The notes: a model not told the origin generated them from the sequence alone. Counted from the stretch's first letter, positions 8,480 to 56,311 are shown. The stretch is 56,311 bases of DNA from Candidatus Thalassarchaeaceae archaeon (GCA_030747675.1 JASLKH010000047.1:1-56311), one strand, 5' to 3'. Translations and numbers: made by a program.

Positions 8480-8547
8480 ATTAATGACTCAAAACGGTCA
8501 AATCATCTAACCAATGATATCATAACTGATATTGATTGACAATTAGA

Positions 8548-35401: not shown

Positions 35402-35462
35402 AGTTACATTTTCATATGGCTGAGTCGGCAGTCCTTTGAACCGGGCGCGAATGGGAATACCC

Positions 35463-40773: not shown

Positions 40774-41235
40774 CTAATGGTTCGATGATTGCATGGCTTC
40801 CCGGGCAATTTTCGCCTTCATCCACATTTCTTTCGCTTCTTCAGTTTCGGGATTGAATTGTGGAATTGGAATAGGGCGCATTTGAGAATCGATTGCAACC
40901 ATAAAGAAGAATCCAGAGCAAATCTCTTCACGCTCCCATTCACTGCGGTTCAATCTTTTTGCAACAACATGGATCCCAGCAGTATGTGTGCTAGTGTGGA
41001 CAATAACAGCGGTTGTTTCAATTAAATCTCCTTGATAAGCAGGTCGCTTAAATTTCAATGCATCTACAGATACTGTGACAAATTCACGATGAGCAAATTT
41101 ACTGGCCATCATTCCTGCGGCAGTGTCCATGATGCTCATCAATCTACCTCCAAAAAGAGTATTGTAGGCATTTGTATGCTGTGGAAAGACCTCATCCATT
41201 TTTGTAACGGCTTCAGTTGAATAGGGTTTAGTCAT
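40774..41235 (-). CDS. Acyl-CoA thioesterase (hotdog fold, YciA-like)
   Basis: 153 aa. Motif: PQHTNAYNTLFGGRLMSIMDTAAG. Confidence 0.8.
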   Translation of the reverse strand: MTKPYSTEAVTKMDEVFPQHTNAYNTLFGGRLMSIMDTAAGMMASKFAHREFVTVSVDALKFKRPAYQGDLIETTAVIVHTSTHTAGIHVVAKRLNRSEWEREEICSGFFFMVAIDSQMRPIPIPQFNPETEEAKEMWMKAKIAREAMQSSNH

Positions 41236-42004: not shown

Positions 42005-42110
42005 TTTGATTATGGATTTGTGTCGATAATCGCCGAATCATCGCAGTTATATGCGGTCTTTGATTCGCAGAGGCGGAACCACTACGTGGTTCAATTGGAT
42101 GTTGATTGAC

Positions 42111-45100
42111 ATGGGTAGTCGAAAGAGATTTTTATGTATAGCAATGATTTGTATGATGTTATTTTCTACAACTGTTGTTCACGCAGCAACAATTAGCACA
42201 TTTTCTAGTGGAAATAGTGAAGTTACTGTTGAGTTACGGGATCAAGGAATTTGGGGAGACGACCTCACTGCTGGCATTAAACTTCCAGCAGGAGAAACCG
42301 TTAATTCTGCGGGTCTTATTTTAGGTACAGATTATGCTGAACAAGCCTCCGTGGATGTTTTGGATGCTTCAGTAATGGACCATATTTGGAACCCTGCTTA
42401 CAATACTGGTTTGACACAATATTCTGCAAATGGTGATTTCACAATAGATGAAGATTACATAAAAATGACTAGTTTAGGTTACAATGCAGATTTCGAGGGT
42501 ACAGACAACACACGTGGTTGGACCACAGGACCAGATCAAGGTTTCATGACTAATTGGGGCCATGGTATTGAAACTGATATCCCAGCAATTTCTGCTGGAT
42601 GTGCAGTTGGAGATTGGTGTTGGGGAACTGATTTTGACGGTGCAGATTACACTATGTTCGTCCCCGACTCTTCTCGTTTTGAATACACGTTGACCAGTGA
42701 ATCGTTCTATGTCACCCCTGGGAAATCAGATCTTTTGTTCAATTCATTCCATTCATTATTTTTCAGAAGTAGTGGTTCATCATCATCATATTATTATGAT
42801 GATTGTGCGTATGTTGCAGTGATGAATTCGACCAATAATCAAGATTGGAATACTGCATCATACGTTCCTTTCGATGTATCTGGTTCCACTGGAATTTCTC
42901 CAAGTAATGGGATGTATGTTGTCGGCACTGCTGTGAATCAGGTGCCCTCAAACCAATGCGATTATCTTGGTAGTAACGGCCCTCAATCTGGCGATTATGT
43001 TTTAGCCGGAAATGGTTCGACGAATGCAAATTCAGCCAATGGTGGCTGGTCTAATCTTAAGGCAAGTCTTGGGGCCCATGCCGGACGTTATGTAAAGTTA
43101 CTTTTCGTCATGGAAGCGAATCAACGTAATGGTGCACTTCCTGCTGAAATGATGAACGCTGGTTGGTATGTCGATGGAGTCCGAGTAGGTGACCCTCTTC
43201 CTGCTCAAGGGCATGTGACTATGTCGTCATTTGCACCGCAAGCTAGCGCACAACCTGATTTCCCGGATGGGTATGGGTTATTGCAATTAGATCTTGAGAA
43301 ACCAGCATCAGCAGCGTTTGGAGTTGATATTTTAGATGCTGGCTCCGGAAACGTCGTCATCGATCGTCATGGTAATTCTCTTACCAATTTACAAGGCTCT
43401 TTGATTGAGTTATGGGATATTAATGCAGACACATATCCTTTAATTGATTTGAAATTTTCATTTGGCTCAGGGCCATCTAGAATTGCAACACCCATACTGC
43501 ATGGCCTATCTCTTGGGACTAGAATTGGGACGACTTTCAATAATACTGGCTCAATTGATATTATGGGTGGAATGATTGGGGATGGAAAATGGACCTCTAG
43601 TATGACTGAGGAATCAGGTGTAATGATATCATCATCGATTAATGATGCAAGTTTTGGTTCAGGAATCAGACGCAATGTCCTATCAATGCCTATTGTGGCA
43701 ATTAAGCCAGTTATTTCGGATGCTTGTGGGGGTCCAAATGAAATTACCATTATGAGTTTGAATAGTGACCAATTACCGGTTTCCGCCGTAAATGGAGTAT
43801 GGTCAGATCTGAGTACGCCCACTTTTGGATTTGCAATGATGTCAAATTATACAACAAGCAATCTTTGTGATGTATACTCAATTCATGCAGATTTACGATT
43901 TGCACATCACTCAGAGGGCATTTCCCTCGATGTAGGAGCAGACGGTGACATTGATTGGGCCATGAATGACCCTGCTTTCGGTCACTTTGGGCGCCAGGAC
44001 ATGTTCCGTACAGGTGTAATAGATGGTGTGAATATGGGTGATGGTGAAAAACAGCTTTCACTTGATATTAGTTTGAATGGGGAAGGTGCTCCATTCCTTT
44101 TGCCTAAGGGTTCCACAGTGTCATATGCAGATGTTAGTTTCGATCAAAATTCAATTGGCTCATTTGATGTATCAATTGTTAGTGGTAATCAAGAAGTAAA
44201 CTTAGGTGAAATGGAAAGTTCGACAGAATACTCTCCAGCACCATTCACAGCATTAACTTCAATTCAAGATGACCTTCAATCACTTTTGGACAACCCTCTT
44301 GTGCCTACGGCAGTTATCGATTCTTATGGAAATGAATGGTATTTATTCAGATTCAAAGTTGATGCTACGCAGAGTTCTACAGCAACATCTGGCGATAGTG
44401 TTAATTTCAGAAATCTGAATATTGTTTATGAGTGGAGCCGAGCATTTAGTGGGGATAATTTTGCACGAGAACTGAACCAGGGAGTTGCTCTTGCTAGCAC
44501 CGGAGGCGTTACGGGTGATGTGATTGTTCCAATGCAAATTGTTGGTGGTTCTGGAGGGGCAATGAAATTACATTCACTTTCGGTATCAACTACAAGTGGT
44601 TATAGTTCCACTCTTGATATTCAGGGATTAGAAGGGATGTATCCAAATGGAGAAATTATTGAAATGATATCAATCCACGATGTTGCTTCTGCAACAGGTC
44701 AATCATTAGCCGGTGCAAGTTTGTTGTTTGAAACATCAAACGGTAACTTGGAATTGCAATGGTCAGCAGCAAATGACACATTTTGGGAACAAAGTGATCC
44801 GGGGGACTATGTTAATTTCATGGCTGCTCAATCACTTTCGATAGATGATACATCGGGTAAAGAATTACGTTGGAGATTCCGAGTCAATCCTGAATGGGAC
44901 GATACTGCAAGTGTTCGTGTTTATGCATCAACAATATCTGATACGGGAGTCAATGGTCTTCCTTCTGGTGCACTAGTTGAACCTGCAAGTGGGAATGCTG
45001 TTGAAAATGATGTAAGCATCACTGATTTCCATTTACTAAATCAGGGTGGCGTTGAACAAAATGACCTTTCCAATGCTTTTTCCAGTAATGCTTTCACATT

Positions 45101-47963
45101 AGATTTCACAGTGCGCTATGAGGATTTAGAAGTCGCTCCGAATCCAAATAACTATCACATGTTACTTCAGAAGAGAAATCAGGATAACCTTTCAGAAGAG
45201 TGGCTTTTTGTCGACACTATTCCAGGTACAATTGATGGTAATTATTCATGGTCACCATCATTGCCGGTGTATGAAGCGGGTACAGAACACTACCGCCTGC
45301 TAATCGAGAACTATACTGACGGCGATACGAATTGCCCACCTGTAGGTGCGATAGTACCCGATTCTGACTGTGCAATCAGATTCTCAATTTCACTAGATCC
45401 TTTCTCACCACATTTAGTAAATATCTCAGTTGCTGTAACTGGACAGGAATGGAGAGAAATTACAGATGACACATGGATCCCTTCAAAGTCAGTCCAAAGA
45501 TTCCGAGTTTATGCACAAGATTTACCCCTTGCACCTGAATCTTTGACACTGAACTATTGGGTTGAAGCATCTCATGATGCCAATAATGACCGAGAGGCCC
45601 AGTTGGATGAATATCAACAGCAATCCATGCCACGTATTGATGCAGCCAATACCTCTGCTTATGAAGTCCAAATCAACGATTACGCAAACTTTGGAATTGA
45701 TCCACCCCAATTAGTGAGTTTGTTTGTATCTGGGACTGACGTTGGTGGTAACTCAATCGATGGTGGTAGTGACGGTTTAGCTCACGATTTGGTGACATAC
45801 ATTGGGATGGGAAGTCGCGCTCCACAAGCTGAACAGCTCCGAATCATGGATTCAAATGGTATTGAATTAAATTCACTCAACAAAGACATTTATGCCGGCA
45901 ACGTGTACCATTTGTTGATTGATGCGAATGATCCAAATGGATGGTTAGATATTGATTATTTCACGATTCAACTCAACCCGTTCATTTGTAGCCCAACATC
46001 TCCAGGATATGATTCACAGGGAACAATGGAAATATATTATTCACCAGTTAATGATACAGCCTGGGAAACAAATGGGAACACATGGGTTGAGATTATTGAT
46101 GATTATGATAATACTGGACTCAAGCCAACAATGTTGCGTAGAGATGGTGGTGTTCTAATTTCATCATTTGAGCAAGATTTCACCTTGGATATACCTGTTC
46201 GATTTGACTGGGCAATCCCAGAATCATTAGTTGCCACACCAACTCCAGTACAGACACCTGCCGTGAAAATTATGGATTTAGATCCAAATCGTGACACCCC
46301 TCCTTCTATGCAAGCGTCCAATTCACAACCGTGGGTGTATTCTAGTGGATTGTACTTGGATACAACTACCTTGAGTGTTGAGGATACTTCAGGATTTACG
46401 TCAACAGGAGTAGGTAGTCAAAATGGAGGTTTCGTGAACCGAGGAGATATTTTACATCTCACTGGTAGATATGTTTTCAGTGATAGTTTCCTAGATTTGT
46501 CTATGGTTACACCTGAGATTCCTATGACGTTAGAATTGACTAGTACACCAATATACCCAAATGGTGAAGTGGATAAACCAGGTAGTGGATATATCCCTGC
46601 TGCTGTTACGACATCAACCTATTTGATTGAGAATGGAACTTTTGATTTGTTAATTGCGGCTCCTATTCAGACAAATGAATTTACTTACACAATGACATTA
46701 ATCAACTTGCCAACTGGTGCAAATGATGAAACTCCAACACCTTCAAAATCATTTGTTGTAAAGGTTGATGGTGACGCACCAGAAGCCGTATTTGGCTCGT
46801 GGGAATTATCTAATTCACAGTCAGGACTTTCAATCGATGGCGACCTTTCATCTGCAGTGATGAACTGTGTTGATGTTGAATTATATATTGATGAATATCA
46901 AGGTTTAGACACGGACTCAGTTGAATTAAATTGGATGTTCTTCGAGCCTGTGGAAGTTGGTGGGTTTGAGTACAACTGGTCTGAATATGTCAATACATAT
47001 ACTGAAGATTGGGAAGTTGACGGTCTTAATCAATCCCTTGATCTCGATGATAATGCGAACACCGGCCGTATTCGTGCAACTTTCAATTGTCTAAATATTT
47101 GGCCAGATGGAGATATTCCAAGCGACATGGAGGATGTACTTGTCAAATTCTGGGTTACTGGTCATGATACGGCAGGAAATGCGATTGGAGGTGGAGGACA
47201 ATTTGGAGGTTCTGTTGATGGCGATAATGGCGTATATGGGTTAAAGTATGAAGCCGCTGAATTCACACTGTCTCGAGTATCATTATCAACATCATCACCT
47301 GAGGCAAAATCCGAACTTGATTTACTCATTGATATGACAAATGATGGCACTATGGAAGGAACCTTAGTTATTGAACTCGTGACATATATTAACGGTAAAG
47401 CTGATTCTCCTGTTGAGTATAGATGTCCACAAGCAGTTGCCCCTGGTGGCGAATATTTGTGGCGTCTAAGCATGCCACAATTCCCTGAACCTGCGACAAA
47501 TGTACGATATGTAATTTATGTCCCTGGAGAAGAAAGTCCAGTCCATGAGACAGACCCATTCAATGTAGGAGCCGAATCAACTAAAGAGAGTGAAGGAGCC
47601 ATGTTGTGGCTTGCTGTTGCCGCCATAGTTTGTTTATTAGTTGTTGCAGTGGTAATTGTTTTCATTGTTGTCAGTAGAGAAACTGAAGGTGATGAAGATG
47701 AGTATATTGATGATGAAGATTTCTTACCTCCTGGTGAGGCAGTAGAACCAATCCGAAGTCGTGGTCCTCCTGCAACTAGAGCAGAGGAACGGCGCGGACC
47801 TCCAGGTTCTCGCCGTGGCCCCCCACAGGCAGCAGCACCAGTGCGCAGTCAGATGGATATTGCTAAAGAAAAATTCCCATTCTGGGACGAGGCTACAATC
47901 CAGGGTTACTTTGACCAAGGTTGGAATATTGATCAATTAGAAGAATGGCTCGCGAGTCAGTAA
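42111..47963 (+). CDS. Giant secreted/membrane-anchored surface protein (1950 aa) with a C-terminal TM anchor and Pro/Arg-rich cytoplasmic tail
   Basis: The ATG at 42111 gives the signal peptide MGSRKRFLCIAMICMMLFSTTVVHAATIS. A long Thr/Ser/Asn/Asp-rich ectodomain follows, with one lectin/jelly-roll-like ending (NAGWYVDGVRVGDP). The TM is AMLWLAVAAIVCLLVVAVVIVFIVV. The tail has repeated RGPP and a terminal FPFWDEATIQGYFDQGWNIDQLEEWL. Confidence 0.75.
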   Translation: MGSRKRFLCIAMICMMLFSTTVVHAATISTFSSGNSEVTVELRDQGIWGDDLTAGIKLPAGETVNSAGLILGTDYAEQASVDVLDASVMDHIWNPAYNTGLTQYSANGDFTIDEDYIKMTSLGYNADFEGTDNTRGWTTGPDQGFMTNWGHGIETDIPAISAGCAVGDWCWGTDFDGADYTMFVPDSSRFEYTLTSESFYVTPGKSDLLFNSFHSLFFRSSGSSSSYYYDDCAYVAVMNSTNNQDWNTASYVPFDVSGSTGISPSNGMYVVGTAVNQVPSNQCDYLGSNGPQSGDYVLAGNGSTNANSANGGWSNLKASLGAHAGRYVKLLFVMEANQRNGALPAEMMNAGWYVDGVRVGDPLPAQGHVTMSSFAPQASAQPDFPDGYGLLQLDLEKPASAAFGVDILDAGSGNVVIDRHGNSLTNLQGSLIELWDINADTYPLIDLKFSFGSGPSRIATPILHGLSLGTRIGTTFNNTGSIDIMGGMIGDGKWTSSMTEESGVMISSSINDASFGSGIRRNVLSMPIVAIKPVISDACGGPNEITIMSLNSDQLPVSAVNGVWSDLSTPTFGFAMMSNYTTSNLCDVYSIHADLRFAHHSEGISLDVGADGDIDWAMNDPAFGHFGRQDMFRTGVIDGVNMGDGEKQLSLDISLNGEGAPFLLPKGSTVSYADVSFDQNSIGSFDVSIVSGNQEVNLGEMESSTEYSPAPFTALTSIQDDLQSLLDNPLVPTAVIDSYGNEWYLFRFKVDATQSSTATSGDSVNFRNLNIVYEWSRAFSGDNFARELNQGVALASTGGVTGDVIVPMQIVGGSGGAMKLHSLSVSTTSGYSSTLDIQGLEGMYPNGEIIEMISIHDVASATGQSLAGASLLFETSNGNLELQWSAANDTFWEQSDPGDYVNFMAAQSLSIDDTSGKELRWRFRVNPEWDDTASVRVYASTISDTGVNGLPSGALVEPASGNAVENDVSITDFHLLNQGGVEQNDLSNAFSSNAFTLDFTVRYEDLEVAPNPNNYHMLLQKRNQDNLSEEWLFVDTIPGTIDGNYSWSPSLPVYEAGTEHYRLLIENYTDGDTNCPPVGAIVPDSDCAIRFSISLDPFSPHLVNISVAVTGQEWREITDDTWIPSKSVQRFRVYAQDLPLAPESLTLNYWVEASHDANNDREAQLDEYQQQSMPRIDAANTSAYEVQINDYANFGIDPPQLVSLFVSGTDVGGNSIDGGSDGLAHDLVTYIGMGSRAPQAEQLRIMDSNGIELNSLNKDIYAGNVYHLLIDANDPNGWLDIDYFTIQLNPFICSPTSPGYDSQGTMEIYYSPVNDTAWETNGNTWVEIIDDYDNTGLKPTMLRRDGGVLISSFEQDFTLDIPVRFDWAIPESLVATPTPVQTPAVKIMDLDPNRDTPPSMQASNSQPWVYSSGLYLDTTTLSVEDTSGFTSTGVGSQNGGFVNRGDILHLTGRYVFSDSFLDLSMVTPEIPMTLELTSTPIYPNGEVDKPGSGYIPAAVTTSTYLIENGTFDLLIAAPIQTNEFTYTMTLINLPTGANDETPTPSKSFVVKVDGDAPEAVFGSWELSNSQSGLSIDGDLSSAVMNCVDVELYIDEYQGLDTDSVELNWMFFEPVEVGGFEYNWSEYVNTYTEDWEVDGLNQSLDLDDNANTGRIRATFNCLNIWPDGDIPSDMEDVLVKFWVTGHDTAGNAIGGGGQFGGSVDGDNGVYGLKYEAAEFTLSRVSLSTSSPEAKSELDLLIDMTNDGTMEGTLVIELVTYINGKADSPVEYRCPQAVAPGGEYLWRLSMPQFPEPATNVRYVIYVPGEESPVHETDPFNVGAESTKESEGAMLWLAVAAIVCLLVVAVVIVFIVVSRETEGDEDEYIDDEDFLPPGEAVEPIRSRGPPATRAEERRGPPGSRRGPPQAAAPVRSQMDIAKEKFPFWDEATIQGYFDQGWNIDQLEEWLASQ

Positions 47964-47979
47964 TCTACACGGTGATCAA

Positions 47980-48804
47980 ATGGTGAGTACGGGAATGCTC
48001 CCGTGGGATCCAATAAATTGGATTGATCCGAACGGCGGTTTAATTCGCCTTTGGCCAATAATCCCATCTGTTGTTCTACCAGAAAACCTACGACGTAGTA
48101 GTGGTGATTGGCACGGCCTCGCATTTTTACTTCCAGATGATGAACATGAAATTTGGTTGGAACAAATTATCGAAGAGAAAAAAAGTCCAGGGATTAATCG
48201 GGATGGAATTGCCGCTAGTGGGGGTATTTTGGGTAGAATGATGCAAGGCATGGCCACAATTGAGGAAATTCAAACAGGGAAATTCCCAGACCCCGAGCCA
48301 CGTCGGTTATTTCAGCAAGCAGAAAGTAAGGCGGGCAAGGGATCTCGTCCAGTTTATTTTGTGGAACCTGATGATGAAGAATGGACAACTTGGGTAGAGG
48401 AATGCGCTGACGAGATGTCCCGCCCAAGGCAACTTTTCAAATCTATTTTCAGCGGTAGATCTTGGCGTAAAGAACTTCTTCGTACAATGAAAGATGCATC
48501 TCCGCCTAAAGTGGTGAGGGATGATGTAAAAGCAACTGCTTTAGCAGAGGCTAGTAGTATTGCAGCAACATGGTGGAGACGAGCAGAGTCTACATTAAAT
48601 GAATCACTTCGTCAAAAACGCGATGAAAGATTGGCTTCAAGATTAAGAGGTGCATTAGTGAATCTGAGGGAGGGACAGATTGATGATAGTGAGACGCCCG
48701 TCCTACTAGTGCCAGTAATGCAGGCTTGGGTCTCATCGATTCACAATGCATTGGAATACGTTGAATCAGAAGCATTGGAAACCGGAGTTGATGAAAGTGA
48801 ATAA
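47980..48804 (+). CDS. Hypothetical acidic protein
   Basis: 274 aa with no recognisable motif. Its 3' end overlaps the next gene by 14 nt. Confidence 0.5.
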   Translation: MVSTGMLPWDPINWIDPNGGLIRLWPIIPSVVLPENLRRSSGDWHGLAFLLPDDEHEIWLEQIIEEKKSPGINRDGIAASGGILGRMMQGMATIEEIQTGKFPDPEPRRLFQQAESKAGKGSRPVYFVEPDDEEWTTWVEECADEMSRPRQLFKSIFSGRSWRKELLRTMKDASPPKVVRDDVKATALAEASSIAATWWRRAESTLNESLRQKRDERLASRLRGALVNLREGQIDDSETPVLLVPVMQAWVSSIHNALEYVESEALETGVDESE

Positions 48805-49312
48805 TACTCAAATTGAAAACCAATTATTTAGATTCACACCGCCAATGGAAATTGAACAACAGCGTATCATTGATGAAATTGGGGGTAAACGTACAGGTGC
48901 TTATGTCATAATTTCTCTTCGTTCTCCACGTGCCACACTCTTAATTGATCAAAGTGGTCGAATAATTGTGCATGGATGTAAAAAGCAAGATGTTGCACAC
49001 TTGGCTGCCAAGGAAGTACTCTTGCGAATGGGAGAAGATGATTCAGGTTTGACCTTTGAGTCTGGTCCAGTCATAGCCTCGTTTGATTTAGAAGCTACAG
49101 TTTCTTTAGAAAAGGTCCCAGACTTGTTCACTGAAGCGAGTTTCGACTCTAATCTTGACTGCATCAGAATCGACGATGATCAACATGAGGTTCAAATTTT
49201 GTTATTCAGAACGGGACGCGGAATTGCTACTGAAGCACGCCATGAAAAATTAGTCACAATGGCCGCTAGGCGTTGGAAACAAAGATTGTCTGATGAGAAC
49301 TTGCTGGGATGA
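48791..49312 (+). CDS. Divergent TBP-fold (TATA-binding-protein-like) two-repeat protein
   Basis: About 173 aa counted from the ATG at 48791. Two repeats follow the TBP pattern: PRATLLIDQSGRIIVHGCKKQDVAHLAAKEVLLRM and HEVQILLFRTGRGIATEARHEKLVTMAARRWKQRL. Compare TBP ...VALLIFSSGK.V.TGAKS......A......L. Each repeat is preceded by a beta-strand-like segment (IENQLFRF..., VIASFDLEATVSL). Confidence 0.5.
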   Translation: MKVNNTQIENQLFRFTPPMEIEQQRIIDEIGGKRTGAYVIISLRSPRATLLIDQSGRIIVHGCKKQDVAHLAAKEVLLRMGEDDSGLTFESGPVIASFDLEATVSLEKVPDLFTEASFDSNLDCIRIDDDQHEVQILLFRTGRGIATEARHEKLVTMAARRWKQRLSDENLLG

Positions 49313-49316
49313 TTGC

Positions 49317-50204
49317 ATGTCCCTCCAAGGTGATCAGTGGGTCGGACCGATATGGGATTCACATATCCATCTTGACCGCAATGGCCGTTGCATTGATGCG
49401 GCCCAAGACTTTGAGCGTTCAGGTGGTACACACATGTGTTTAGTGCATAAACCAGCTTTCCCTAATCGCTTACCTGAAAATATTCATTCAGTCGACGATG
49501 CATATCGTGAAACTTTACGAATTGCAGAATTGATTCGGGGTGAATGCAATCTTGACGTCAGAGTGATCTTGGGACCTCACCCAGTTGTATGGGAAAAACA
49601 AATTCATACACTTGGATTGGAGGATGCATGCGAACTTCATTTAGCCTCTGTCGAACTTGCACTGGAATATTGTGCTGAAGGTAAAGCCGTTGGCATTGGA
49701 GAAGTAGGTCGACCTCATTATCCCGTGGAGCAAGAAATCATGAAGGCCGCAGATTTACAACTTACTGAGATCATGCGAATGGCGGCCAAAGAAAACGTGC
49801 CAATCCAATTACATGTTGATGACAATGGTGCTCAAACAAATATGGAATTAGCGTTGTTATGTGATCGGGCAGGTTTAAGCCGAGAGCGAGCAATCCATCA
49901 TTATGCCCAAGCAGATGTGAGTGCGGATTTCACTCACGGTCTTTCAGCCTCGGTATCCATGGGTAAAGAGAGTGTACAGAAAATTGTTGAAACCTGTTTT
50001 TCTTCAAATTCTACATGGACGATGGAAACTGATTACATGGATGATTTGTCTAGGCCCGGGGCAGTCCTTGGTCCGAAGACGATTCCCAAGCGAACTCATG
50101 CATTGGTTCATGCCCTTCTACAGCATGTAGAACCCCATTCTGTTGAAGAATTATTGCTCAACATCCATCAGTTCTGGCCAAATTCACTTTACGGTAATTT
50201 TTGA
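49317..50204 (+). CDS. TatD-family metal-dependent hydrolase
   Basis: Motifs: WDSHIHLD, GIGEVGRPHYP and PIQLHVDD. The ATG at 49317 avoids overlap with the upstream gene; the tracked start is 49293. Confidence 0.75.
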   Translation: MSLQGDQWVGPIWDSHIHLDRNGRCIDAAQDFERSGGTHMCLVHKPAFPNRLPENIHSVDDAYRETLRIAELIRGECNLDVRVILGPHPVVWEKQIHTLGLEDACELHLASVELALEYCAEGKAVGIGEVGRPHYPVEQEIMKAADLQLTEIMRMAAKENVPIQLHVDDNGAQTNMELALLCDRAGLSRERAIHHYAQADVSADFTHGLSASVSMGKESVQKIVETCFSSNSTWTMETDYMDDLSRPGAVLGPKTIPKRTHALVHALLQHVEPHSVEELLLNIHQFWPNSLYGNF

Positions 50205-50285: not shown

Positions 50286-51077
50286 ATGCTACAACTTGAA
50301 GGTAAGACTGCACTTATTTTTGGAGTCGCTTCCGAGGATTCGATTGCGTGGGCAATTTGCCAAAGATTAGCGGAGGCTGGATGCAGTTTAATTCTAGGAT
50401 ATCAAAAGAGATTCATGAGTCGAATATTCCAATTAAAGGATAAATTACCAGCTATTTCAGCATTTTATCCGATTGATGTTGCCGAAGAAGAAACTACCGC
50501 TGAATTTTTCCATGAATGGCAAAATGAAAATCCAGGTGCAAAAGCAGATATTATCATCCATGCAATTGGATTTGCACCCAAGGAATGCTTTGATCGTCAT
50601 ATGTTGTTTGTTGAAGATGCCCCAATTAATACAGCAATGACAATTTCAGCCCATTCACTTCAACGGGTAATGCGTAATGCATTACCACATTTGGCCCCCA
50701 ATTCTTCAACTATCACTCTGACATATGCGGCTAGTACGAGATACGTGCCAAATTACGGTATCATGAGTATTGCCAAAGCCGCACTTGAAGCTTGGGTTCG
50801 TGAATTATCAATGCGTGTTGGAGATGATGGGCATAGAGTCAATGCTATTTCTTCAGGACCCATTAGGACATTAGCTGCATCAGGAATTCCAGGATTCACA
50901 GATATTCTCAATCATGTTGAACGTAATTCTCCCTTGAAGCGAAATGTAAATCAAGATGATGTTGCAGGTTGTGCAGTTTGGCTTGCCAGCCCTCTCGGGG
51001 CTGGCGTAACTGGTCAAATCATACATGTGGATTGTGGATATTCAAGTACTATGGTACCAGATAGTATCAGTGATTGA
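50286..51077 (+). CDS. fabI: Enoyl-[acyl-carrier-protein] reductase, FabI-type SDR
   Basis: 263 aa. Motifs: GKTALIFGVASEDSIAWAI, Y-x6-K (YVPNYGIMSIAKAALEAWVR), NAISSGPIRTLAASGI and TGQIIHVDCGY. Confidence 0.85.
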   Translation: MLQLEGKTALIFGVASEDSIAWAICQRLAEAGCSLILGYQKRFMSRIFQLKDKLPAISAFYPIDVAEEETTAEFFHEWQNENPGAKADIIIHAIGFAPKECFDRHMLFVEDAPINTAMTISAHSLQRVMRNALPHLAPNSSTITLTYAASTRYVPNYGIMSIAKAALEAWVRELSMRVGDDGHRVNAISSGPIRTLAASGIPGFTDILNHVERNSPLKRNVNQDDVAGCAVWLASPLGAGVTGQIIHVDCGYSSTMVPDSISD

Positions 51078-51086
51078 GGTGAAGGG

Positions 51087-54000
51087 ATGGAAACGTTGGA
51101 CGAAAATCCGCAGGACCCCTTTGAACCAATTGCAATAATTGGCGTATCTGCCCTTTTCCCCGATTCACCAAACGTTGAAACTTTTTGGAAGAATATCCTT
51201 GACGGTAAAGTTTCACTGAAGGAGGTTCCCAGAGATAGATGGGTTGAGTCTGATTTTTGGGTAGAGGGTGGCCCTAAGAATATTGATGAAAACAAAACCT
51301 ATTCTAAAATTGGAGGATGGGTAGAGGGTTATGAATTTGATTGGAGACGATGGAGAGTCCCCCCTGGGAGTATTCTGCAGATTGATCCGACTCAACTGTG
51401 GGCAGTATCTGTAAGTGCAGCGGCATTAGAAGATGCAGGCTATTTGGTGGATGGCGGAAAGGAATTACCGAGCGCTAGAACTGGTGTGATTTTTGCAAAT
51501 GCCCTTGGGGGAGAGAATAGAAATTTGTCTAATCATCGAGTTTGGGCAGATCAGTTTGCTCGTCATGCAGTGGAAGTTGGAGGAATGCCTGAGTCCGGGA
51601 AAAAGGCATTCAAAGAAGCTCTCATGGAAGGGTTGCCTAAAGTTGATGAAGATACAATGCCCGGTGAACTTGCCAACGTAGTTGCAGGAAGAGTGGCAAA
51701 CCTCCTTGATTTGCAAGGACCAAACTATGCTACAGACGCTGCTTGTGCAACTACATTTTCAACAGTTTTAGATGCGTGTAGATTACTACACACACGGCAA
51801 GTCGATATGATGATTGCTGGAGCAAGTGATCGAACAATGGACCCTGCTACATTTGCCAAATTCAGTGCCATTGGAGCACTTTCGGCATCACATTCTATTC
51901 CATTTGATTCTAGAGCAAACGGTTTTGTCATGGGAGAAGGAGCAGGTGCAATCATACTGAAACGTTTGTCTGATGCATTGAGTGATGGCGACCAAGTTCA
52001 TGCAGTAATCCGCGGAGTTGGAGCCAGTAGTGACGGCCGCGGTAAAGGAATTACAGCACCAAGTACACGTGGGCAAATTCAGGCTGTTATGCGAGCATAT
52101 CAACAAGCGGGTTACGGGCCAGAATCAGTTGAATTAATTGAGGCACATGGCACTAGTACTGTGGTTGGCGATGCTACTGAGTTGAGTTCCTTATCATCAG
52201 TATTTTCCTCAAAATCACCAGGGGAAAGTGTGGCAGTAGGTTCAATAAAAAGTCAAATTGGCCATCTAAAATCCGCTGCTGGAATGGCTGGTTTATTGAA
52301 AGCAATTATTGCAGTTCGTGAGGGGATAATCCCGCCTAGTGCAGGTTTTGAAAAGCCTAATCAGAATATTTCTTGGGACGAAAACCCATTTTTCATCCCA
52401 ACTTCTCCAAAATCATGGGATTCTCGGAATAATCCACGTAGAGCAGGAATCTCTGCATTTGGGTTCGGTGGAACTAATTTCCATTGCGCAATAGAAGAGT
52501 TTGATTTGAGTTATCATTCAGTTATTGCTGCTGAATTTGATGCACGTCGAGCAGCGTGGCTTAATCCAAGCTCTGTAAATTCTAGCCCTAGCGAGGAAAT
52601 CGGTAATAGAGGTATGAATTGGGATGAATTAAAATCAGTAGAGGGCGGAGTTCTACTACTAAATGCAGAGGGCATAGACGAATTAAAGAATCAAATTACA
52701 CCACTCAAGGTGGGATTACAATCAGGTGTAAATTTTGATAATTCCCCACAAGGAAAACGACTTTCAATTGAACTTCCGAAACTAAGTTCAAATTATACAG
52801 CGGAAGGACTCCGTGTCGCGATTGTCGCCAGTGATTGGGATCAACTATTCAAACGAATTGAATTGTTGGAGAAATCAATTGATGATCGCAAAAAATGGGA
52901 TTTCCTTTCAAAACAAATGGTAATGATTACTGATGCTCCAGTACTTGAAAATGATGCCAAGGTGGCCCAACTGTTCCCTGGACAAGGGAGTCAATATGTG
53001 GGGATGACATATGATTTATCCAAGAGATATACTTGTGTCGGAAATACTTGGGATGAAGCAGACTTGACAATGACCTCAGTTCTGGATGGTGAAACCTTAT
53101 CCTCGTTCGTACTTCGTAGTAATCTTACAGATTCTCAAAAGAAAGAAGCTGAGTACAAACTCAAACAAACAGAATATACACAACCAGCGATGTTAACTGC
53201 AGATTTGGCGATTTACCGTCTTCTCAAGGCGCATGGATTGGAACCAGATATGGTTGCAGGGCATTCATTAGGAGAATATGCCGCATTGATGGTTGCAGGA
53301 ATACTTGATTTTGATGGGGCACTTCGAGCGGTCGCAGCACGTGGTACTGAAATGGGCAATGTTGACGTCCCAGATTGTGGAATTATGGCATCAGTAACTG
53401 CACCTTATGAATTAATTCAATCTGCATTGGATGACGAAGATGGTTATGTAATTGCAGCGAATAAGAATAGTCCAAAGATGACTGTAATTGCTGGAGAAAC
53501 TGAACCTATGAAGAGGGTGATGAATAAATTTGCAGAGGCAGGAGTCCCCTGCGTTCAATTGCAAACAAGCCACGCTTTCCACTCAAAGATAGTGGCTCCT
53601 GCGAACGAGCCTCTTCGAAACTTTTTGAATAGTTTAGATCTATCTTTACCAGTAATACCAATATCCTCTAACCTCGACGGGGGCTGGTATCCAAATTCTC
53701 TACCTAAAGGTAGTACTGCGAATCAAGAAATATTATCAAAATTGGCTCCACAAATGGCTTCTGCAGTTGAGTGGACAAAACAGATCGAAACTATGTATGA
53801 AGGGGGCGCCCGTTTATTTGTAGAAGTTGGTCCAAAGCGTGCATTAGCACTTTTCACAGAGCAAATCCTTGAAGGGAAAGAATTGGTTGTGACGAATACA
53901 AATCATCCAAAAGTAGGGGGTATCGCATCATTCCATGCAGCACTTGCGATACATGCGCTTGCAGGGCGGGTTCCAAATTTCTTGGAGCCCGACGATACCC

Positions 54001-56311
54001 ACCTTACTGCTGAATTCCGTTTGGGGGTTATTCCTGTAAATAAAACCCCCAAAGAAGAGATGGAATCTTTTGTTGAATTAGATGAAGAGGCGAAAATTGA
54101 ATGTTACCGGCAAGCGAAAGAGAGTTTTGTAGCAGATATTGTAGCAGCGGCTTCAGGATTCCCTCGTCGAATGGTTCACGGTTCCGTAGATTTAGTTTCA
54201 ATTGGTATTACTCAAGACCAAATATCAATGATTCAATCTACCATACAAAGTACAGTTCAGGTTAAGGATTCACTACCCGGGACAGATTTACCTGGGTATG
54301 TGGATTGGTTGAATGAAATCCCCGGTGGTAAATCTGCGGCTATTACACGTTTTGGAAAAGGTTCATCGATTCCGATTCCAGTGATTGCAAGAACTAATCC
54401 ATCCCCTGCAATACCCATATTGTCTCCAGTCAAGGATTCGTTATCCTCACGACGGACCAATCCATTTGTAATTTCAGGAATTAGTTTGGGATTACCTGGT
54501 ATGGCCGAGGTTTTCTCCCCGGATGTTTTTGACCGAATCATCGCAGGGGAGAACTTCATATCTGAACTACCTAACGAAATGAAACAACGTTTGCTTGATA
54601 AAAACCTTGTGAGAATTGTAAAGCATTCTGATGGTTCAGCAGAATTTGTCCCATGTTCCTCTTTCGATTTGTTGCCACAACTTGCGGGTAGGGCCGGTAA
54701 GTTTGATTTGGCAGAGCAATATGGGGTCGACTCTAAAATAACGGGTGCCATGGATATTGCAACCAGTTTAGCACTCGCTGCAGGACTTGAAGCCCTCAAA
54801 GATGCAGGCCTTCCACTTGTTGCTGTAGAGCAGGTAAATAAGTCCGGAAAACGACTAATTCAGAAATGGCACCTCCCTCCAAATGAACAAAATCGAACTG
54901 GGGTAGTATTCGCCTCTTGTTTCCCTGGACTAGATATGGCGATGTCACATGCTAGGAATAATGGGGCTGACTCTGATGGGTATTTTGACCGCAGATTCCT
55001 CCTCCAAGTTCTTTCCATGGGTCATTCTCAGTTCGCCCAATGGATTGGAGCTAAAGGACCCAATACAGCAGTTAACAATGCTTGTGCATCTACTCCTGCC
55101 GCTATTGCAATCGCAGAAGATTGGTTGACAACTGGGCGTTGTGATCGTGTAATCATTGTTAGTGGAGATAATGTGACCAGTGACGAGTTGATGGAATGGA
55201 TAGGTGCTGGTTTTTCTGCTGCGGGCGCTCATGCAATGGGCAAGATTGTCGAAGAGGTCGCGTTACCATTTGATGCAAGGAGAAGCGGAATGCTCCTTGG
55301 TATGGGTGGAGCAGCCTTTGTGATGGAACGTTCCAATTATGCAATGGAAAGAGGCATTATTCCTTATGTAGAACTACTAGGTGCCTACATTGGAAACTCG
55401 GCATATCACCCCACTAGATTGGATATAGAACATGTGTCAAAATCACTAGAATTATTCATCACAAAAATGGAAAAAGATTGGGACCTCAATCGCCACCAAA
55501 TTGCACAAAAAATGAGTTTTATGTCACATGAACCAGCAACGCCTCCGCGAGGTGGTTCTGCTGCTGCTGAAATTCAGGCATTAAGGCACACATTTGGAGA
55601 GAGTGCCTCTAAGATTATTATCACGAATACAAAGGGTTTCACGGGCCATCCGATGGGTGTTGGTATAGAGGATGCAGTTGCGATTAGGGGACTTGTTCAA
55701 GGTGAATTTCCCCCTATTGCAAATTTCCGTGACCCCGATCCTGAATTAGGTGATTTGCTGCTTTCAAAGGGTGGACCTGTTGATACAGAATTTGTTTTAC
55801 GGCACGCTGCTGGTTTTGGTTCTCAAATGGCTCTAATCTTGATACGTAAAATTGCAAAGAGCCTTGACAGGATAGATCGAGAAAAAGTCGCTTCATGGAC
55901 TGCAAAATCTGTAGGTAAAGACGTAGAACTTAGAGTATTAAATCGTAAACTAATAGCCTATATTGAACCTGATGACAATATTATTGGGGGGATAAATGGT
56001 GAAGAGTATTCTGTTGTAAAGTCAACAGTAGTAATAGAACCTGTATCTGCAGTTGTAGAGGTAGCCCCACAACCAGTAACAACCTCTGGTGATCCAGATG
56101 TCGAATCAAAAGTTGTAGAGGTTGTAGTCAAGCATACAGGTTATCCTGCTGATTTCATTGAATTAGATCAGGACCTTGAGGGCGAGTTGGGAATTGACAC
56201 AGTCAAGCAAGCAGAGATTATGGCTGAGTTGCGAGAGTTTTACGGATTACCTGTGGATGAATCATTTGTGTTGTCAGAGCATCCGACATTAAATCACATG
56301 ATTACTTATCT
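51087..56311 (+). CDS. Type I PKS / PUFA-synthase (PfaA)-like multidomain megasynthase, 5' portion (KS - AT - degenerate carrier-like segment - KS - carrier domain); continues beyond the window
   Basis: This ORF is not in the supplied track because the frame has no stop before the window end. ATG 51087 is preceded by GGTGA. KS1 (about 51110-52500) has IAIIGVSALFP, DAACATT (Cys codon 51744-51746), EAHGTST and SIKSQIGHLKSAAG. AT (about 52960-53800) has FPGQGSQYVGM, GHSLGEYAAL (Ser codon 53265-53267) and SHAFHS. KS2 (about 54460-55870) has ISGISLGLPG, NNACASTPAA (Cys codon 55083-55085), SHEPATPP and NTKGFTGHPMG. The carrier-like domain (about 56100-56311) reads KHTGYPADFIELDQDLEGELGIDTVKQAEIM. 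All of these residues are in one frame with ATG 51087. Confidence 0.85.
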   Translation, partial: METLDENPQDPFEPIAIIGVSALFPDSPNVETFWKNILDGKVSLKEVPRDRWVESDFWVEGGPKNIDENKTYSKIGGWVEGYEFDWRRWRVPPGSILQIDPTQLWAVSVSAAALEDAGYLVDGGKELPSARTGVIFANALGGENRNLSNHRVWADQFARHAVEVGGMPESGKKAFKEALMEGLPKVDEDTMPGELANVVAGRVANLLDLQGPNYATDAACATTFSTVLDACRLLHTRQVDMMIAGASDRTMDPATFAKFSAIGALSASHSIPFDSRANGFVMGEGAGAIILKRLSDALSDGDQVHAVIRGVGASSDGRGKGITAPSTRGQIQAVMRAYQQAGYGPESVELIEAHGTSTVVGDATELSSLSSVFSSKSPGESVAVGSIKSQIGHLKSAAGMAGLLKAIIAVREGIIPPSAGFEKPNQNISWDENPFFIPTSPKSWDSRNNPRRAGISAFGFGGTNFHCAIEEFDLSYHSVIAAEFDARRAAWLNPSSVNSSPSEEIGNRGMNWDELKSVEGGVLLLNAEGIDELKNQITPLKVGLQSGVNFDNSPQGKRLSIELPKLSSNYTAEGLRVAIVASDWDQLFKRIELLEKSIDDRKKWDFLSKQMVMITDAPVLENDAKVAQLFPGQGSQYVGMTYDLSKRYTCVGNTWDEADLTMTSVLDGETLSSFVLRSNLTDSQKKEAEYKLKQTEYTQPAMLTADLAIYRLLKAHGLEPDMVAGHSLGEYAALMVAGILDFDGALRAVAARGTEMGNVDVPDCGIMASVTAPYELIQSALDDEDGYVIAANKNSPKMTVIAGETEPMKRVMNKFAEAGVPCVQLQTSHAFHSKIVAPANEPLRNFLNSLDLSLPVIPISSNLDGGWYPNSLPKGSTANQEILSKLAPQMASAVEWTKQIETMYEGGARLFVEVGPKRALALFTEQILEGKELVVTNTNHPKVGGIASFHAALAIHALAGRVPNFLEPDDTHLTAEFRLGVIPVNKTPKEEMESFVELDEEAKIECYRQAKESFVADIVAAASGFPRRMVHGSVDLVSIGITQDQISMIQSTIQSTVQVKDSLPGTDLPGYVDWLNEIPGGKSAAITRFGKGSSIPIPVIARTNPSPAIPILSPVKDSLSSRRTNPFVISGISLGLPGMAEVFSPDVFDRIIAGENFISELPNEMKQRLLDKNLVRIVKHSDGSAEFVPCSSFDLLPQLAGRAGKFDLAEQYGVDSKITGAMDIATSLALAAGLEALKDAGLPLVAVEQVNKSGKRLIQKWHLPPNEQNRTGVVFASCFPGLDMAMSHARNNGADSDGYFDRRFLLQVLSMGHSQFAQWIGAKGPNTAVNNACASTPAAIAIAEDWLTTGRCDRVIIVSGDNVTSDELMEWIGAGFSAAGAHAMGKIVEEVALPFDARRSGMLLGMGGAAFVMERSNYAMERGIIPYVELLGAYIGNSAYHPTRLDIEHVSKSLELFITKMEKDWDLNRHQIAQKMSFMSHEPATPPRGGSAAAEIQALRHTFGESASKIIITNTKGFTGHPMGVGIEDAVAIRGLVQGEFPPIANFRDPDPELGDLLLSKGGPVDTEFVLRHAAGFGSQMALILIRKIAKSLDRIDREKVASWTAKSVGKDVELRVLNRKLIAYIEPDDNIIGGINGEEYSVVKSTVVIEPVSAVVEVAPQPVTTSGDPDVESKVVEVVVKHTGYPADFIELDQDLEGELGIDTVKQAEIMAELREFYGLPVDESFVLSEHPTLNHMITY

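What the first reader, a model, noticed from the sequence alone, without database searches (positions are those of the whole stretch)
50286..56311. FabI plus a type I PKS/PUFA-synthase-like megasynthase in an archaeal genome (ORF absent from the supplied track)
From ATG 51087 a single frame stays open for more than 5.2 kb to the window edge, so a stop-bounded ORF caller misses it. It encodes a complete ketosynthase (Cys-His-His) with the PfaA-style ...GRVANLLDLQGPNYATDAACA... context. A malonyl-type acyltransferase follows (GHSLGE, HAFH), then a second complete ketosynthase and a carrier-like domain. A FabI-type enoyl reductase gene lies 9 nt upstream. Archaea are generally considered to lack ACP-dependent type I FAS/PKS machinery, and described archaeal PKS genes are very rare. 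The KS-AT-x-KS-carrier order is also not the canonical PfaA order (KS-AT-ACPn-KR-DH). This may be an uncharacterised fatty-acid, polyene or polyketide lipid system acquired by, or specific to, this archaeal lineage. The rest of the gene and cluster (KR/DH/ER, PPTase) lie beyond the window.
Basis: partly seen in the sequence, partly recalled or inferred. Interest (0 to 1): 0.85.

Follow-up and report, generated by a model that had tools for sequence, protein, structure and literature searches.

The report
Archaeal type I fatty-acid-like megasynthase
The window ends in a conserved three-gene cassette of Marine Group II archaea (enoyl reductase, a giant PfaA-like synthase, and an activating enzyme just past the edge) that has every domain needed to build fatty acyl chains, and its carrier domain has a threonine where all described carriers have a serine.

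Summary
A FabI gene (50286-51077) lies 9 nt upstream of a frame that stays open from 51087 to the window edge. Two independent assemblies, 99.98% identical to the window, extend it to 2651 aa. The order is KS, malonyl-AT, degenerate ACP, second KS (Cys-His-His kept), ACP, KR, DH. An Sfp-type PPTase gene follows.

The contig is archaeal: it carries Cdc6/Orc1 and a TBP-like gene. The FabI-synthase-PPTase cassette has the same neighbours in about 50 Poseidoniales (Marine Group II) species genomes, on contigs up to 594 kb.

The architecture is not new. It matches the uncharacterised "Type R secondary lipid synthase" (KS-MAT-CLF-ACPn-KR plus PPTase) of Shulse and Allen 2011. I find this family in many bacteria and in Asgard and other Thermoplasmatota archaea. 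An enoyl reductase is found in nearly every context examined, but of a different type in different lineages: FabI, a fused FabK/PfaD-type domain, or an adjacent acyl-CoA dehydrogenase. Biotin carboxylase genes are often adjacent.

My best reading is an iterative, fully reducing fatty-acid synthase.

One unreported oddity: the phosphopantetheine-attachment serine is a threonine in about 79% of Poseidoniales carrier domains and about 93% across the family.

The parts
50286..51077 (+). FabI-type (SDR) enoyl-ACP reductase, 263 aa. Proposed trans-acting ER of the synthase.
   Evidence: Pfam adh_short_C2 5.7e-66. The best 12 NCBIfam hits are all FabI models, but below their cut-offs (224.8 vs 391 bits). 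Best PDB match is Thermus FabI 1ulu at 7.7e-54, with Y-x6-K aligned. A FabI gene lies immediately upstream of the synthase in every Poseidoniales locus that reaches that far, at 71-92% identity.
51078..51086 (+). 9-nt spacer between the FabI stop and the synthase ATG. It forms part of a Shine-Dalgarno-like GAGGTGA and suggests co-transcription and coupled translation.
   Evidence: Read directly from the sequence. Function is inferred.
51087..56311 (+). Megasynthase ORF. The first 1741 of 2651 codons are in the window; the rest is cut off by the window end. Full order: KS1, AT, degenerate ACP, KS2, ACP, KR, DH.
   Evidence: The continuation was read from L001 and L002, which differ from the window at 3 of 16026 bases.
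51123..52499 (+). KS1, a PfaA-like ketosynthase (residues 13-471) with C220, H354 and H393.
   Evidence: Pfam. Best NCBIfam model is TIGR02813 PfaA, positions 8-463. Across 120 Poseidoniales orthologs, all 240 aligned ketosynthase stretches carry Cys at the nucleophile column, for either ketosynthase query.
52971..53873 (+). Malonyl-type acyltransferase (residues 629-929) with GHSLGE (S727) and HAFH (H829).
   Evidence: Pfam Acyl_transf_1 2.1e-35. NCBIfam FabD 1.8e-58. S727 and H829 are invariant in 120 orthologs. Malonyl specificity from the HAFH motif rests on established PKS knowledge.
54114..54320 (+). Degenerate carrier domain (residues 1010-1078). It has the ACP fold signature, but the attachment motif is lost (IGITQ in place of LGIDT).
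   Evidence: hhalign of the ortholog alignment against the family ACP alignment: 97.6%, E 3.5e-12. Some family members carry a real ACP at this position.
54537..55916 (+). KS2, a FabF-like second ketosynthase (residues 1151-1610) with C1333, H1481 (in an unusual S-H-E motif), K1516 and H1521. This is the domain called 'CLF' in the Type R description.
   Evidence: PDB phmmer best hit FabF 2gqd at 2.5e-24, with catalytic residues aligned. NCBIfam FabF 127 bits, below the cut-off. Cys, His, Lys and His are conserved in the orthologs.
56109..56311 (+). ACP (residues 1675-1741), cut by the window end. The attachment motif is LGIDTVKQAEI, with Thr1705 (codon ACA at 56199-56201) where carriers normally have Ser.
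   Evidence: Pfam PP-binding 1.4e-07. The codon was read directly. This Thr aligns with the phosphopantetheinylated Ser of PigH and type II ACPs.

Best explanation
This is the 5' two-thirds of a conserved Marine Group II (Poseidoniales) cassette of three genes: fabI, a synthase of about 2650-3050 aa, and an Sfp-type phosphopantetheinyl transferase.

The synthase is a PfaA-like iterative type I enzyme of the 'Type R' architecture.

Proposed mechanism (inferred from domain content):
1. The PPTase installs phosphopantetheine on the ACP, here on a threonine.
2. The AT loads malonyl units from malonyl-CoA.
3. The two Cys-His-His ketosynthases catalyse priming and elongation. By analogy with the two KS of PUFA synthases, they may divide the work by chain length.
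4. KR reduces the beta-keto group.
5. The PKS-type DH dehydrates to the trans-2-enoyl intermediate.
6. FabI, acting in trans, reduces the enoyl intermediate.

The cycle repeats to give a saturated, or largely saturated, fatty acyl-ACP.

There is no thioesterase domain, so release must use a separate hydrolase or acyltransferase.

The most likely role is de novo supply of fatty acyl chains in a lineage reported to lack G1P dehydrogenase and to carry G3P dehydrogenase and bacterial-type ester-lipid genes.

Shown here: domain content, catalytic residues, gene order, conservation, archaeal origin and family distribution.
Inferred: product, division of labour between the KS domains, Thr modification and physiological role.
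For: - **Complete reductive domain set, with catalytic residues kept in 120 orthologs.** KS Cys at every aligned ketosynthase stretch, AT Ser 120/120, KR Tyr 120/120, DH His and Pro 120/120.
- **FabI is intact and always adjacent.** It has the Y-x6-K motif and lies directly upstream in Poseidoniales.
- **A PPTase with intact motifs follows**.
- **An ER is part of the unit in nearly every context examined, but not an orthologous one.** Asgard P0126 and Bradymonadaceae P0138 fuse an NMO (FabK/PfaD-type) domain at the N-terminus and the PPTase at the C-terminus. Bacterial loci L086 and L087 carry an adjacent or fused acyl-CoA dehydrogenase, with ETF in L086. No ER was identified for the Heimdallarchaeota locus L089.
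- **Biotin carboxylase or ACC genes recur next to the synthase.** Seen in L086, L087 and L090, and reported for Koribacter in PMC3098273. This points to a malonyl-CoA-consuming lipid synthase.
- **No FabA-type DH, PfaC or PfaD gene is in the cassette**.
- **Inheritance looks vertical.** The KS2 tree splits Marine Group IIb from IIa, as the taxonomy does. Synteny holds in about 50 species.
- **Lineage context.** None of 270 Poseidoniales MAGs has G1P dehydrogenase, and almost all have G3P dehydrogenase (PMC6461757). [quoted passage not shown]
Against: - No member of the Type R family has a characterised product (no later study found).
- Tandem ACPs (1-4 in the orthologs) and PfaA-like KS, KR and DH are hallmarks of 'secondary lipid' synthases rather than housekeeping FAS.
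- In Marine Group IIb an ABC exporter and a GT2 glycosyltransferase lie downstream. This would also fit an exported or glycosylated specialised lipid.
- No release enzyme or acyltransferase is in the cassette.
- I could not check whether Poseidoniales genomes hold a complete acetyl-CoA carboxylase, or lack type II FAS genes.
- A threonine attachment site has no biochemical precedent that I know of. The ACP might therefore be modified poorly or differently.
Confidence: 0.6

Rival explanations
1. It is a 'secondary lipid' synthase. It makes a specialised long-chain product rather than bulk membrane fatty acids. Candidates include a hydroxy or very-long-chain fatty acid, a fatty alcohol or diol, the tail of a glycolipid, or a hydrocarbon precursor. 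The product would then be modified and exported.
For: The family was defined as a secondary lipid synthase type with unknown product. Orthologs have tandem ACPs. KS1 and KR-DH are closest to PfaA. The PPTase is weakly HetI-like. An ABC exporter and a GT2 gene are syntenic downstream in Marine Group IIb, and an MFS gene lies next to the PPTase. antiSMASH reportedly labels Poseidoniaceae clusters as T1PKS or HglE-KS (retracted paper PMC10434046).
Against: Conservation across both Poseidoniales families with vertical-looking inheritance is more typical of a core function. The downstream transporter and GT genes are not conserved in Marine Group IIa. No reductase, thioesterase, type III PKS or Ole genes are adjacent. 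Recurrent linkage to ACC genes elsewhere suggests high malonyl-CoA flux.
Confidence: 0.3
2. It is a PUFA or polyene synthase of the Pfa type, making polyunsaturated chains.
For: TIGR02813 PfaA is the best-scoring NCBIfam model (773.7 bits). NaPDoS placed related Heimdallarchaeota KS domains nearest the PUFA class (PMC7472256).
Against: The score is below the PfaA cut-off of 1010.1. There are no FabA-type DH domains, no PfaC and no PfaD in the cassette. A dedicated ER is found in nearly every context examined. The single DH is of the PKS type, which in PUFA synthases serves the saturating steps (my own knowledge of Dairi-group work, not checked here).
Confidence: 0.05
3. The right end of the contig is a misassembled or mis-binned bacterial fragment, or the gene is a decaying relic.
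For: Two public MAGs that carry the locus are labelled bacterial: 'Verrucomicrobiales' (L014) and 'Yoonia' (L048).
Against: Those two loci have the full archaeal synteny, so they are the mis-binned ones. The window carries Cdc6/Orc1 and a TBP-like gene. GC content is flat at 0.41-0.46 across the junction. Three assemblies agree to 3 mismatches in 16 kb. The cassette sits inside contigs of up to 594 kb labelled Poseidonia. The ORFs are intact and all catalytic residues are conserved.
Confidence: 0.01

Closest known systems
Type R secondary lipid synthase cluster (Shulse and Allen 2011, PLoS One 6:e20146; Koribacter, Solibacter, Elusimicrobium, Roseiflexus)
   Same: One PfaA homolog with the order KS-MAT-'CLF'-ACPn-KR, followed by a PPTase gene. 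It is sometimes linked to an ACC gene. The product is unknown. The second KS of the window protein has 47-53% identical relatives in Acidobacteria, Elusimicrobiota and Chloroflexales MAGs.
   Different: The published description names no archaea. It calls the middle domain a CLF, whereas this domain keeps Cys-His-His. It lists no ER or DH. Here FabI sits directly upstream and a PKS-type DH follows KR. The window protein has 1 ACP and its orthologs 1-4, against 3-6 in the description. The Thr attachment residue was not noted there.
PfaA of omega-3 PUFA synthases (TIGR02813)
   Same: It is the best-scoring curated model. KS1 aligns to model positions 8-463 and KR-DH to 1756-2342. Both have a malonyl AT, tandem ACPs in relatives, and a HetI/Sfp-type PPTase partner.
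   Different: The score of 773.7 is below the cut-off of 1010.1. A degenerate ACP and a FabF-like KS are inserted between AT and the ACPs. No pfaB, pfaC or pfaD partner genes are present. The ER is FabI (SDR type), not the FMN-dependent PfaD. The ACP motif is LGIDT, not LGIDS.
Heterocyst glycolipid synthase HglE/HglD/HglC and the Azotobacter ArsA/ArsD fatty-acid synthase (Types F and P in Shulse and Allen)
   Same: These are Pfa-like iterative type I systems that make saturated or hydroxylated long acyl chains rather than PUFAs. They use HetI-like PPTases. antiSMASH reportedly labels Poseidoniaceae clusters HglE-KS.
   Different: In those systems KS-CLF sits on a separate protein. [quoted passage not shown] Homology to them was not tested directly.
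Bacterial type II FAS components FabF and FabI
   Same: KS2 is most similar to FabF structures. The upstream gene is a FabI-type reductase with Y-x6-K.
   Different: KS2 is embedded in a megasynthase and has S-H-E in place of the H-G-T motif. Both proteins score below the NCBIfam equivalog cut-offs.

Membership tests
PfaA, PUFA synthase subunit A (NCBIfam TIGR02813) | Whole-protein score at or above the curated cut-off (1010.1 bits) | tested here: not met
   The full-length 2651-aa protein scores 773.7 bits. It is the best model but falls below the cut-off.
PfaA, PUFA synthase subunit A (NCBIfam TIGR02813) | Domain order KS-MAT-ACPn-KR-DH, with pfaB, pfaC (KS-CLF-DH2) and pfaD (ER) as partner genes | tested here: not met
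   A degenerate ACP and a second KS lie between AT and the ACP. The neighbours are FabI and a PPTase, and no pfaB, pfaC or pfaD is present.
Type R secondary lipid synthase (Shulse and Allen 2011) | A single PfaA homolog with KS-MAT-CLF-ACPn-KR | tested here: met
   The order is KS1, AT, (degenerate ACP), KS2, ACP, KR, DH, as in the description. Caveats: the 'CLF' position holds a Cys-containing KS, and the ACP count is 1-4 rather than 3-6.
Type R secondary lipid synthase (Shulse and Allen 2011) | PPTase gene immediately downstream | tested here: met
   A 254-aa ACPS + 4PPT_N protein starts 41 nt after the synthase stop in L001. It is present in all Poseidoniales loci that extend that far.
Type R secondary lipid synthase (Shulse and Allen 2011) | The KS groups phylogenetically with the Type R reference sequences (Koribacter, Solibacter, Elusimicrobium, Roseiflexus) | tested here: inconclusive
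Indirect support: KS2-type domains from Terriglobales/Acidobacteria, Elusimicrobiota and Chloroflexales MAGs fall in the same family at 47-53% identity and in the same rough NJ tree.
Chain length factor (CLF) of KS-CLF pairs | Loss of the active-site cysteine | tested here: not met
   KS2 keeps Cys1333, His1481 and His1521, aligned to the FabF triad. Cys is present at every aligned ketosynthase stretch of 120 orthologs, and in 238 of the 239 family stretches that cover the column.
FabI enoyl-ACP reductase | SDR fold of the adh_short_C2 type, the Tyr-x6-Lys catalytic pair, and an equivalog-level score | tested here: inconclusive
   Fold and Y-x6-K are met. The best NCBIfam FabI model gives 224.8 bits against a cut-off of 391. 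It is therefore a divergent FabI-type enzyme.
Phosphopantetheine-binding carrier domain (Pfam PF00550) | A score above the gathering threshold and a conserved Ser as the attachment site | tested here: not met
   The score is met: 32.1 bits against 20.8. The Ser is not: the aligned residue is Thr1705. Thr occurs in 208 of 264 Poseidoniales ACP domains and in 332 of 358 ACP domains of family representatives. Seven of seven carrier domains outside the family in control loci have Ser.
Sfp-type phosphopantetheinyl transferase | Two-lobed ACPS fold with the H..GR, G-x-D-x-E and W-x-x-K-E-A motifs | tested here: met
   Pfam ACPS 3.3e-09 and 4PPT_N 1.4e-4. The motifs are visible in an alignment of 13 cognate PPTases. 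The protein is very divergent, with no significant PDB sequence match. The gene lies outside the window.

The most novel reading that the evidence does not exclude
Marine Group II archaea, and the whole Type R family, use carrier domains that are phosphopantetheinylated on threonine by a dedicated, highly divergent PPTase. In Poseidoniales the fabI-synthase-PPTase cassette is then the primary, ACP-dependent fatty-acid synthase. It would feed ester-linked glycerol-3-phosphate lipids in archaea that lack G1P dehydrogenase. Some of the most abundant archaea in the surface ocean would therefore build at least part of their membrane the bacterial way, using a synthase type that has never been characterised.
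Probability: 0.3. Interest if true: 0.85.

Novelty: new member of a known kind. Interest (0 to 1): 0.62.

Why it matters
[quoted passage not shown] They reportedly lack the enzyme that makes the archaeal glycerol-1-phosphate backbone. What their membranes are made of is therefore an open question in the 'lipid divide' debate.

A conserved, intact, ACP-dependent cassette with every activity of a fatty-acid synthase gives that debate a concrete three-gene target that can be expressed and tested.

The same cassette opens a large uncharacterised family. At least 517 protein clusters (50% identity), in many bacterial phyla and in Asgard archaea, carry its distinctive second ketosynthase.

The near-universal threonine at the carrier attachment site, if it is modified, would extend the chemistry of phosphopantetheinylation. 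It could also provide an orthogonal carrier/PPTase pair.

It also matters for biomarker work. Fatty acids in seawater particles are normally assigned to bacteria and eukaryotes only.

Tried and rejected
- **PUFA synthase reading.** Rejected. The PfaA model scores below its cut-off, and no PfaC, PfaD or FabA-type DH is present.
- **CLF reading of the second KS.** Rejected. The cysteine is kept.
- **Bacterial contamination.** Rejected.
- **L058 (Salinivirgaceae) and L060 (Verrucomicrobiota) as possible bacterial relatives.** L058 is cut by the contig end and has Ser-type ACPs. L060 is an ordinary type II FAS locus.
- **Covariation between the cognate PPTase and Thr-type versus Ser-type ACPs.** An alignment of 13 PPTases shows the catalytic motifs in both groups and no obvious diagnostic residue. 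Phylogeny confounds the comparison.
- **The conserved 274-aa neighbour (47980-48804).** No Pfam hit and no PDB profile hit. The single-sequence AlphaFold2 model is unusable, with mean pLDDT 39.4.
- **Two homolog searches with full-length Heimdallarchaeota and Bradymonadaceae proteins.** Both failed. A 530-aa KS2 query worked.
- **Literature.** Ten full-text searches found no paper describing this Marine Group II synthase, no characterisation of Type R, and no report of threonine phosphopantetheinylation. Villanueva et al. 2017 and Martin-Cuadrado et al. 2015 are not held. I therefore could not check whether they mention this gene.
- **Neighbouring genes as a source of a release enzyme.** Nothing conserved was found.

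Full report
**1. Observation**

Translation from ATG 51087 runs for 1741 codons to the window edge without a stop. The ORF lister skips it only because it runs off the end.

Pfam finds a complete ketosynthase (residues 13-471) and an acyltransferase (629-929). It also finds a second, weaker ketosynthase signal and a PP-binding domain (1675-1741) cut by the window end.

The upstream gene 50286-51077 is a FabI-type SDR (adh_short_C2 5.7e-66). Its best NCBIfam hits are all FabI models, and its best PDB match is Thermus FabI at 7.7e-54 with the Y-x6-K pair aligned. Nine bases, part of a GAGGTGA Shine-Dalgarno-like sequence, separate its stop from the synthase ATG.

The second KS aligns over its whole length with FabF structures (best 2.5e-24). 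Cys1333, His1481 and His1521 sit at the catalytic positions.

**2. The rest of the gene**

The exact FabI protein is encoded on two other public contigs, an ENA contig of 113.6 kb and a JGI contig of 39.7 kb. Over the 16,026 bases they share with the window, each differs at only 3 positions, with no indels.

They show the full gene. It encodes 2651 aa, with a KR (Pfam 4e-24) and a PKS-type DH (HxxxGxxxxP present) after the ACP. A 254-aa Sfp-type PPTase gene follows (ACPS 3.3e-09, 4PPT_N), then an MFS transporter gene on the other strand.

It has lost the attachment motif.

The complete order is KS1, AT, degenerate ACP, KS2, ACP, KR, DH, with FabI and the PPTase in trans.

**3. Archaeal and not chimeric**

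The window carries a Cdc6/Orc1 gene, a TBP-like gene and FlaJ/T2SSF-type genes. GC content is flat across the region.

A scan of one genome per GTDB species returned about 54 Poseidoniales (Marine Group II) loci. Their orthologs are 49-76% identical over the full query, on contigs up to 594 kb.

A tblastn synteny map shows the same block in essentially all of them. The order is: large surface-type protein, 270-aa hypothetical, TBP-like, TatD-like, FabI, synthase, PPTase.

Two loci labelled 'Verrucomicrobiales' and 'Yoonia' have this same archaeal block and are evidently mis-binned.

The 120 best database homologs are all Poseidoniales orthologs of 2628-3054 aa. They carry generic names such as 'SDR family NAD(P)-dependent oxidoreductase' and 'Pks15/1 [Marine Group II euryarchaeote]'.

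A rough NJ tree of KS2 places the Poseidoniales sequences, together with one unnamed sequence from a 3-Mb contig, in a weakly supported clade (53%). That clade splits into Marine Group IIb (85%) and IIa (99%) as the taxonomy does. This points to vertical inheritance within the order. The window belongs to the IIb (Thalassarchaeaceae) side.

**4. Conservation of function**

In 120 orthologs:
- every aligned ketosynthase stretch carries the nucleophile Cys, whichever ketosynthase is used as the query
- the KS2 His, Lys and His are kept
- the AT Ser and the HAFH His are invariant
- the KR Tyr and the DH His and Pro are invariant

This gene is under purifying selection. It is not a relic.

**5. 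Which family**

An exhaustive HMMER search with KS2 against 1.84 billion cluster representatives gave 517 hits at E<=1e-30. The best 150 are all below 1e-112.

I mapped the window protein's domains onto those 150. The dominant architecture is KS1-AT-KS2-ACP(1-6)-KR-DH. Variants have an N-terminal extension of about 700 aa, an extra KS, or a real ACP where the window protein has the degenerate one.

Named members come from Marine Group II, other Thermoplasmatota, an 'Asgard group archaeon', Heimdallarchaeota, Bradymonadaceae and Polyangiaceae. A second search added Acidobacteria, many Actinomycetota, Chloroflexi, Myxococcota, Gemmatimonadota, Elusimicrobiota and Gammaproteobacteria.

Shulse and Allen (2011, PMC3098273) described this architecture as the 'Type R' secondary lipid synthase. 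It is one pfaA homolog, KS-MAT-CLF-ACP(3-6)-KR, followed by a PPTase gene. They found it in Koribacter, Solibacter, Elusimicrobium and Roseiflexus, and its product is unknown. In Koribacter an ACC gene lies in between. That paper does not mention archaea. I found no later characterisation.

By NCBIfam the closest curated model is PfaA, at 773.7 bits against a cut-off of 1010.1. KS1 and KR-DH carry that signal. KS2 is only FabF-like (127 bits), and no model is specific to the family.

The protein is therefore PfaA-like but not PfaA. The 'CLF' label does not fit, because the cysteine is kept.

**6. What the contexts say about function**

An enoyl reductase accompanies the synthase in nearly every context examined, but its type changes:
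- FabI in Poseidoniales
- an N-terminal NMO (FabK/PfaD-type) domain fused to the synthase in the Asgard and Bradymonadaceae proteins, which also fuse the PPTase at the C-terminus
- an adjacent or fused acyl-CoA dehydrogenase, with ETF genes, in two bacterial loci

No reductase was identified for the Heimdallarchaeota locus.

Non-orthologous replacement of one activity argues that the activity is required. The cycle is therefore fully reducing.

Biotin-dependent carboxylase genes recur next to the synthase. Two bacterial loci have a single-chain ACC of about 1900 aa. Another Thermoplasmatota contig has BioY, biotin carboxylase and BCCP. The window itself has a biotin carboxylase gene 15 kb upstream.

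No FabA-type dehydratase, PfaC, PfaD, thioesterase domain, reductase domain, type III PKS or Ole gene is in the Poseidoniales cassette.

The most economical reading is an iterative type I fatty-acid synthase that makes saturated acyl chains. Release would need a separate enzyme. A 4HBT thioesterase at 40774-41235 is directly adjacent to the block in one relative, but it is only a candidate.

**7. Physiological role**

Rinke et al. report that none of 270 Poseidoniales MAGs has G1P dehydrogenase, while nearly all have G3P dehydrogenase. Villanueva et al. [quoted passage not shown]

A conserved ACP-dependent synthase fits that picture. I could not verify whether this gene is what those authors saw.

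The main rival is a specialised 'secondary' lipid. Tandem ACPs support it, as do an ABC exporter and a GT2 gene downstream in Marine Group IIb. I rate the two readings about 2:1.

**8. An unexpected feature**

The ACP attachment motif is LGIDTVKQAEI. The residue that aligns with the phosphopantetheinylated Ser of solved ACPs is Thr1705 (codon ACA at 56199-56201).

Across the fetched proteins:

| Set | Thr | Ser |
|---|---|---|
| Poseidoniales ACP domains (264) | 208 | 55 |
| Family-representative ACP domains (358) | 332 | 20 |

Ser-type proteins form whole subclades, and all ACPs in a protein switch together.

The Thr type also occurs in the cultured actinomycete Kibdelosporangium lantanae. 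Carrier domains outside the family, taken from control loci, are 7/7 Ser.

The cognate PPTase keeps its catalytic motifs. It is so divergent that it has no significant PDB sequence match.

A phrase search found no report of threonine phosphopantetheinylation, and I know of none. Whether the Thr is modified remains to be shown.

**9. Verdict**

The finding is real and its interpretation is essentially right. The architecture is a known but uncharacterised kind. The gene is a conserved Marine Group II trait that is already in databases and was flagged by BGC surveys (a retracted paper; for Heimdallarchaeota).

What this analysis adds:
- the complete cassette and its order-wide conservation
- membership of archaea in the Type R family
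- the ER-replacement argument for a fully reducing cycle
- the Cys-containing 'CLF'
- the degenerate ACP
- the Thr carrier site

Noticed in passing
window 56199-56201 (Thr1705 of the synthase); also L086 and L087: The carrier-domain attachment residue is Thr, not Ser. This holds in about 79% of Poseidoniales ACP domains and about 93% of family ACP domains. Ser-type subclades exist, and all tandem ACPs in a protein switch together. The Thr type also occurs in cultured Kibdelosporangium lantanae.
   Followed up: yes
window 47980-50204: Three tightly packed genes sit directly upstream of fabI in essentially every Poseidoniales locus. They are a 274-aa protein with no Pfam or PDB match, a very divergent TBP-like protein (Pfam TBP 1.7e-10; NCBIfam 37 bits against a cut-off of 270) and a TatD-like hydrolase. 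Any functional link to the synthase is unknown.
   Followed up: partly
window 35436-36800: A biotin carboxylase (AccC-like, 454 aa) lies 15 kb upstream of the cassette. It is a possible part of the malonyl-CoA supply. No BCCP or carboxyltransferase gene was found among the window ORFs scanned.
   Followed up: no
window 40774-41235 (- strand); L085 2312-2761: A 4HBT hot-dog thioesterase. In relative L085 it sits right next to the conserved block. In the window, a ThiI-like gene and a 1970-aa ORF separate it from the block. It is a candidate chain-release enzyme.
   Followed up: partly
window 28458-29468: A fusion of a cytidylyltransferase-like domain with DUF359. This would be a PPAT plus dephospho-CoA kinase, the last two steps of coenzyme A synthesis. 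The DUF359 assignment rests on my own knowledge.
   Followed up: no
window 7680-8462, 16777-17673 (-), 19468-20352 (-), 18255-19421 (-): Beta-oxidation-type genes share the window with the synthase: two enoyl-CoA hydratases, a 3-hydroxyacyl-CoA dehydrogenase and a PaaA/PaaC-like protein. This fits the reported fatty-acid degradation capacity of Marine Group II.
   Followed up: no
window 8536-16776 and 42051-47963: Two giant ORFs of 2746 and 1970 aa. The 1970-aa one has no significant Pfam match, and orthologs at 33-55% identity precede the cassette in other Poseidoniales. The 2746-aa one was not scanned.
   Followed up: partly
L014 (NZEQ01000014.1, 'Verrucomicrobiales bacterium ARS100') and L048 (CAXRJJ010000057.1, 'Yoonia sp.'): These two contigs sit in bacterial MAGs but carry the full Poseidoniales gene order around the synthase. 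They are almost certainly mis-binned archaeal contigs.
   Followed up: partly
P0126 (Asgard group archaeon, MEA2070463.1) and P0138 (Bradymonadaceae, MBA2665313.1): These single polypeptides of about 3600 aa fuse every activity: NMO-type ER, KS, AT, KS2, ACPs, KR, DH and the PPTase.
   Followed up: partly
L086 790-6492 and 15822-21458; L087 15256-20954: Bacterial family members are flanked by an Fe-S/CCG oxidoreductase, ETF alpha and beta, an acyl-CoA dehydrogenase, and a eukaryote-like single-chain acetyl-CoA carboxylase of about 1900 aa. The carboxylase resembles the multidomain ACC studied in Saccharopolyspora erythraea (PMC6491548).
   Followed up: partly
synthase residues 1481-1482 (window 55527-55532): The first catalytic His of KS2 lies in S-H-E-(P/T)-x-T-P instead of the usual H-G-T-G-T motif. 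The Glu is conserved in nearly all Poseidoniales orthologs (119 of 120) and is the commonest residue in the family representatives. Its consequence for decarboxylation or substrate binding is unknown.
   Followed up: partly
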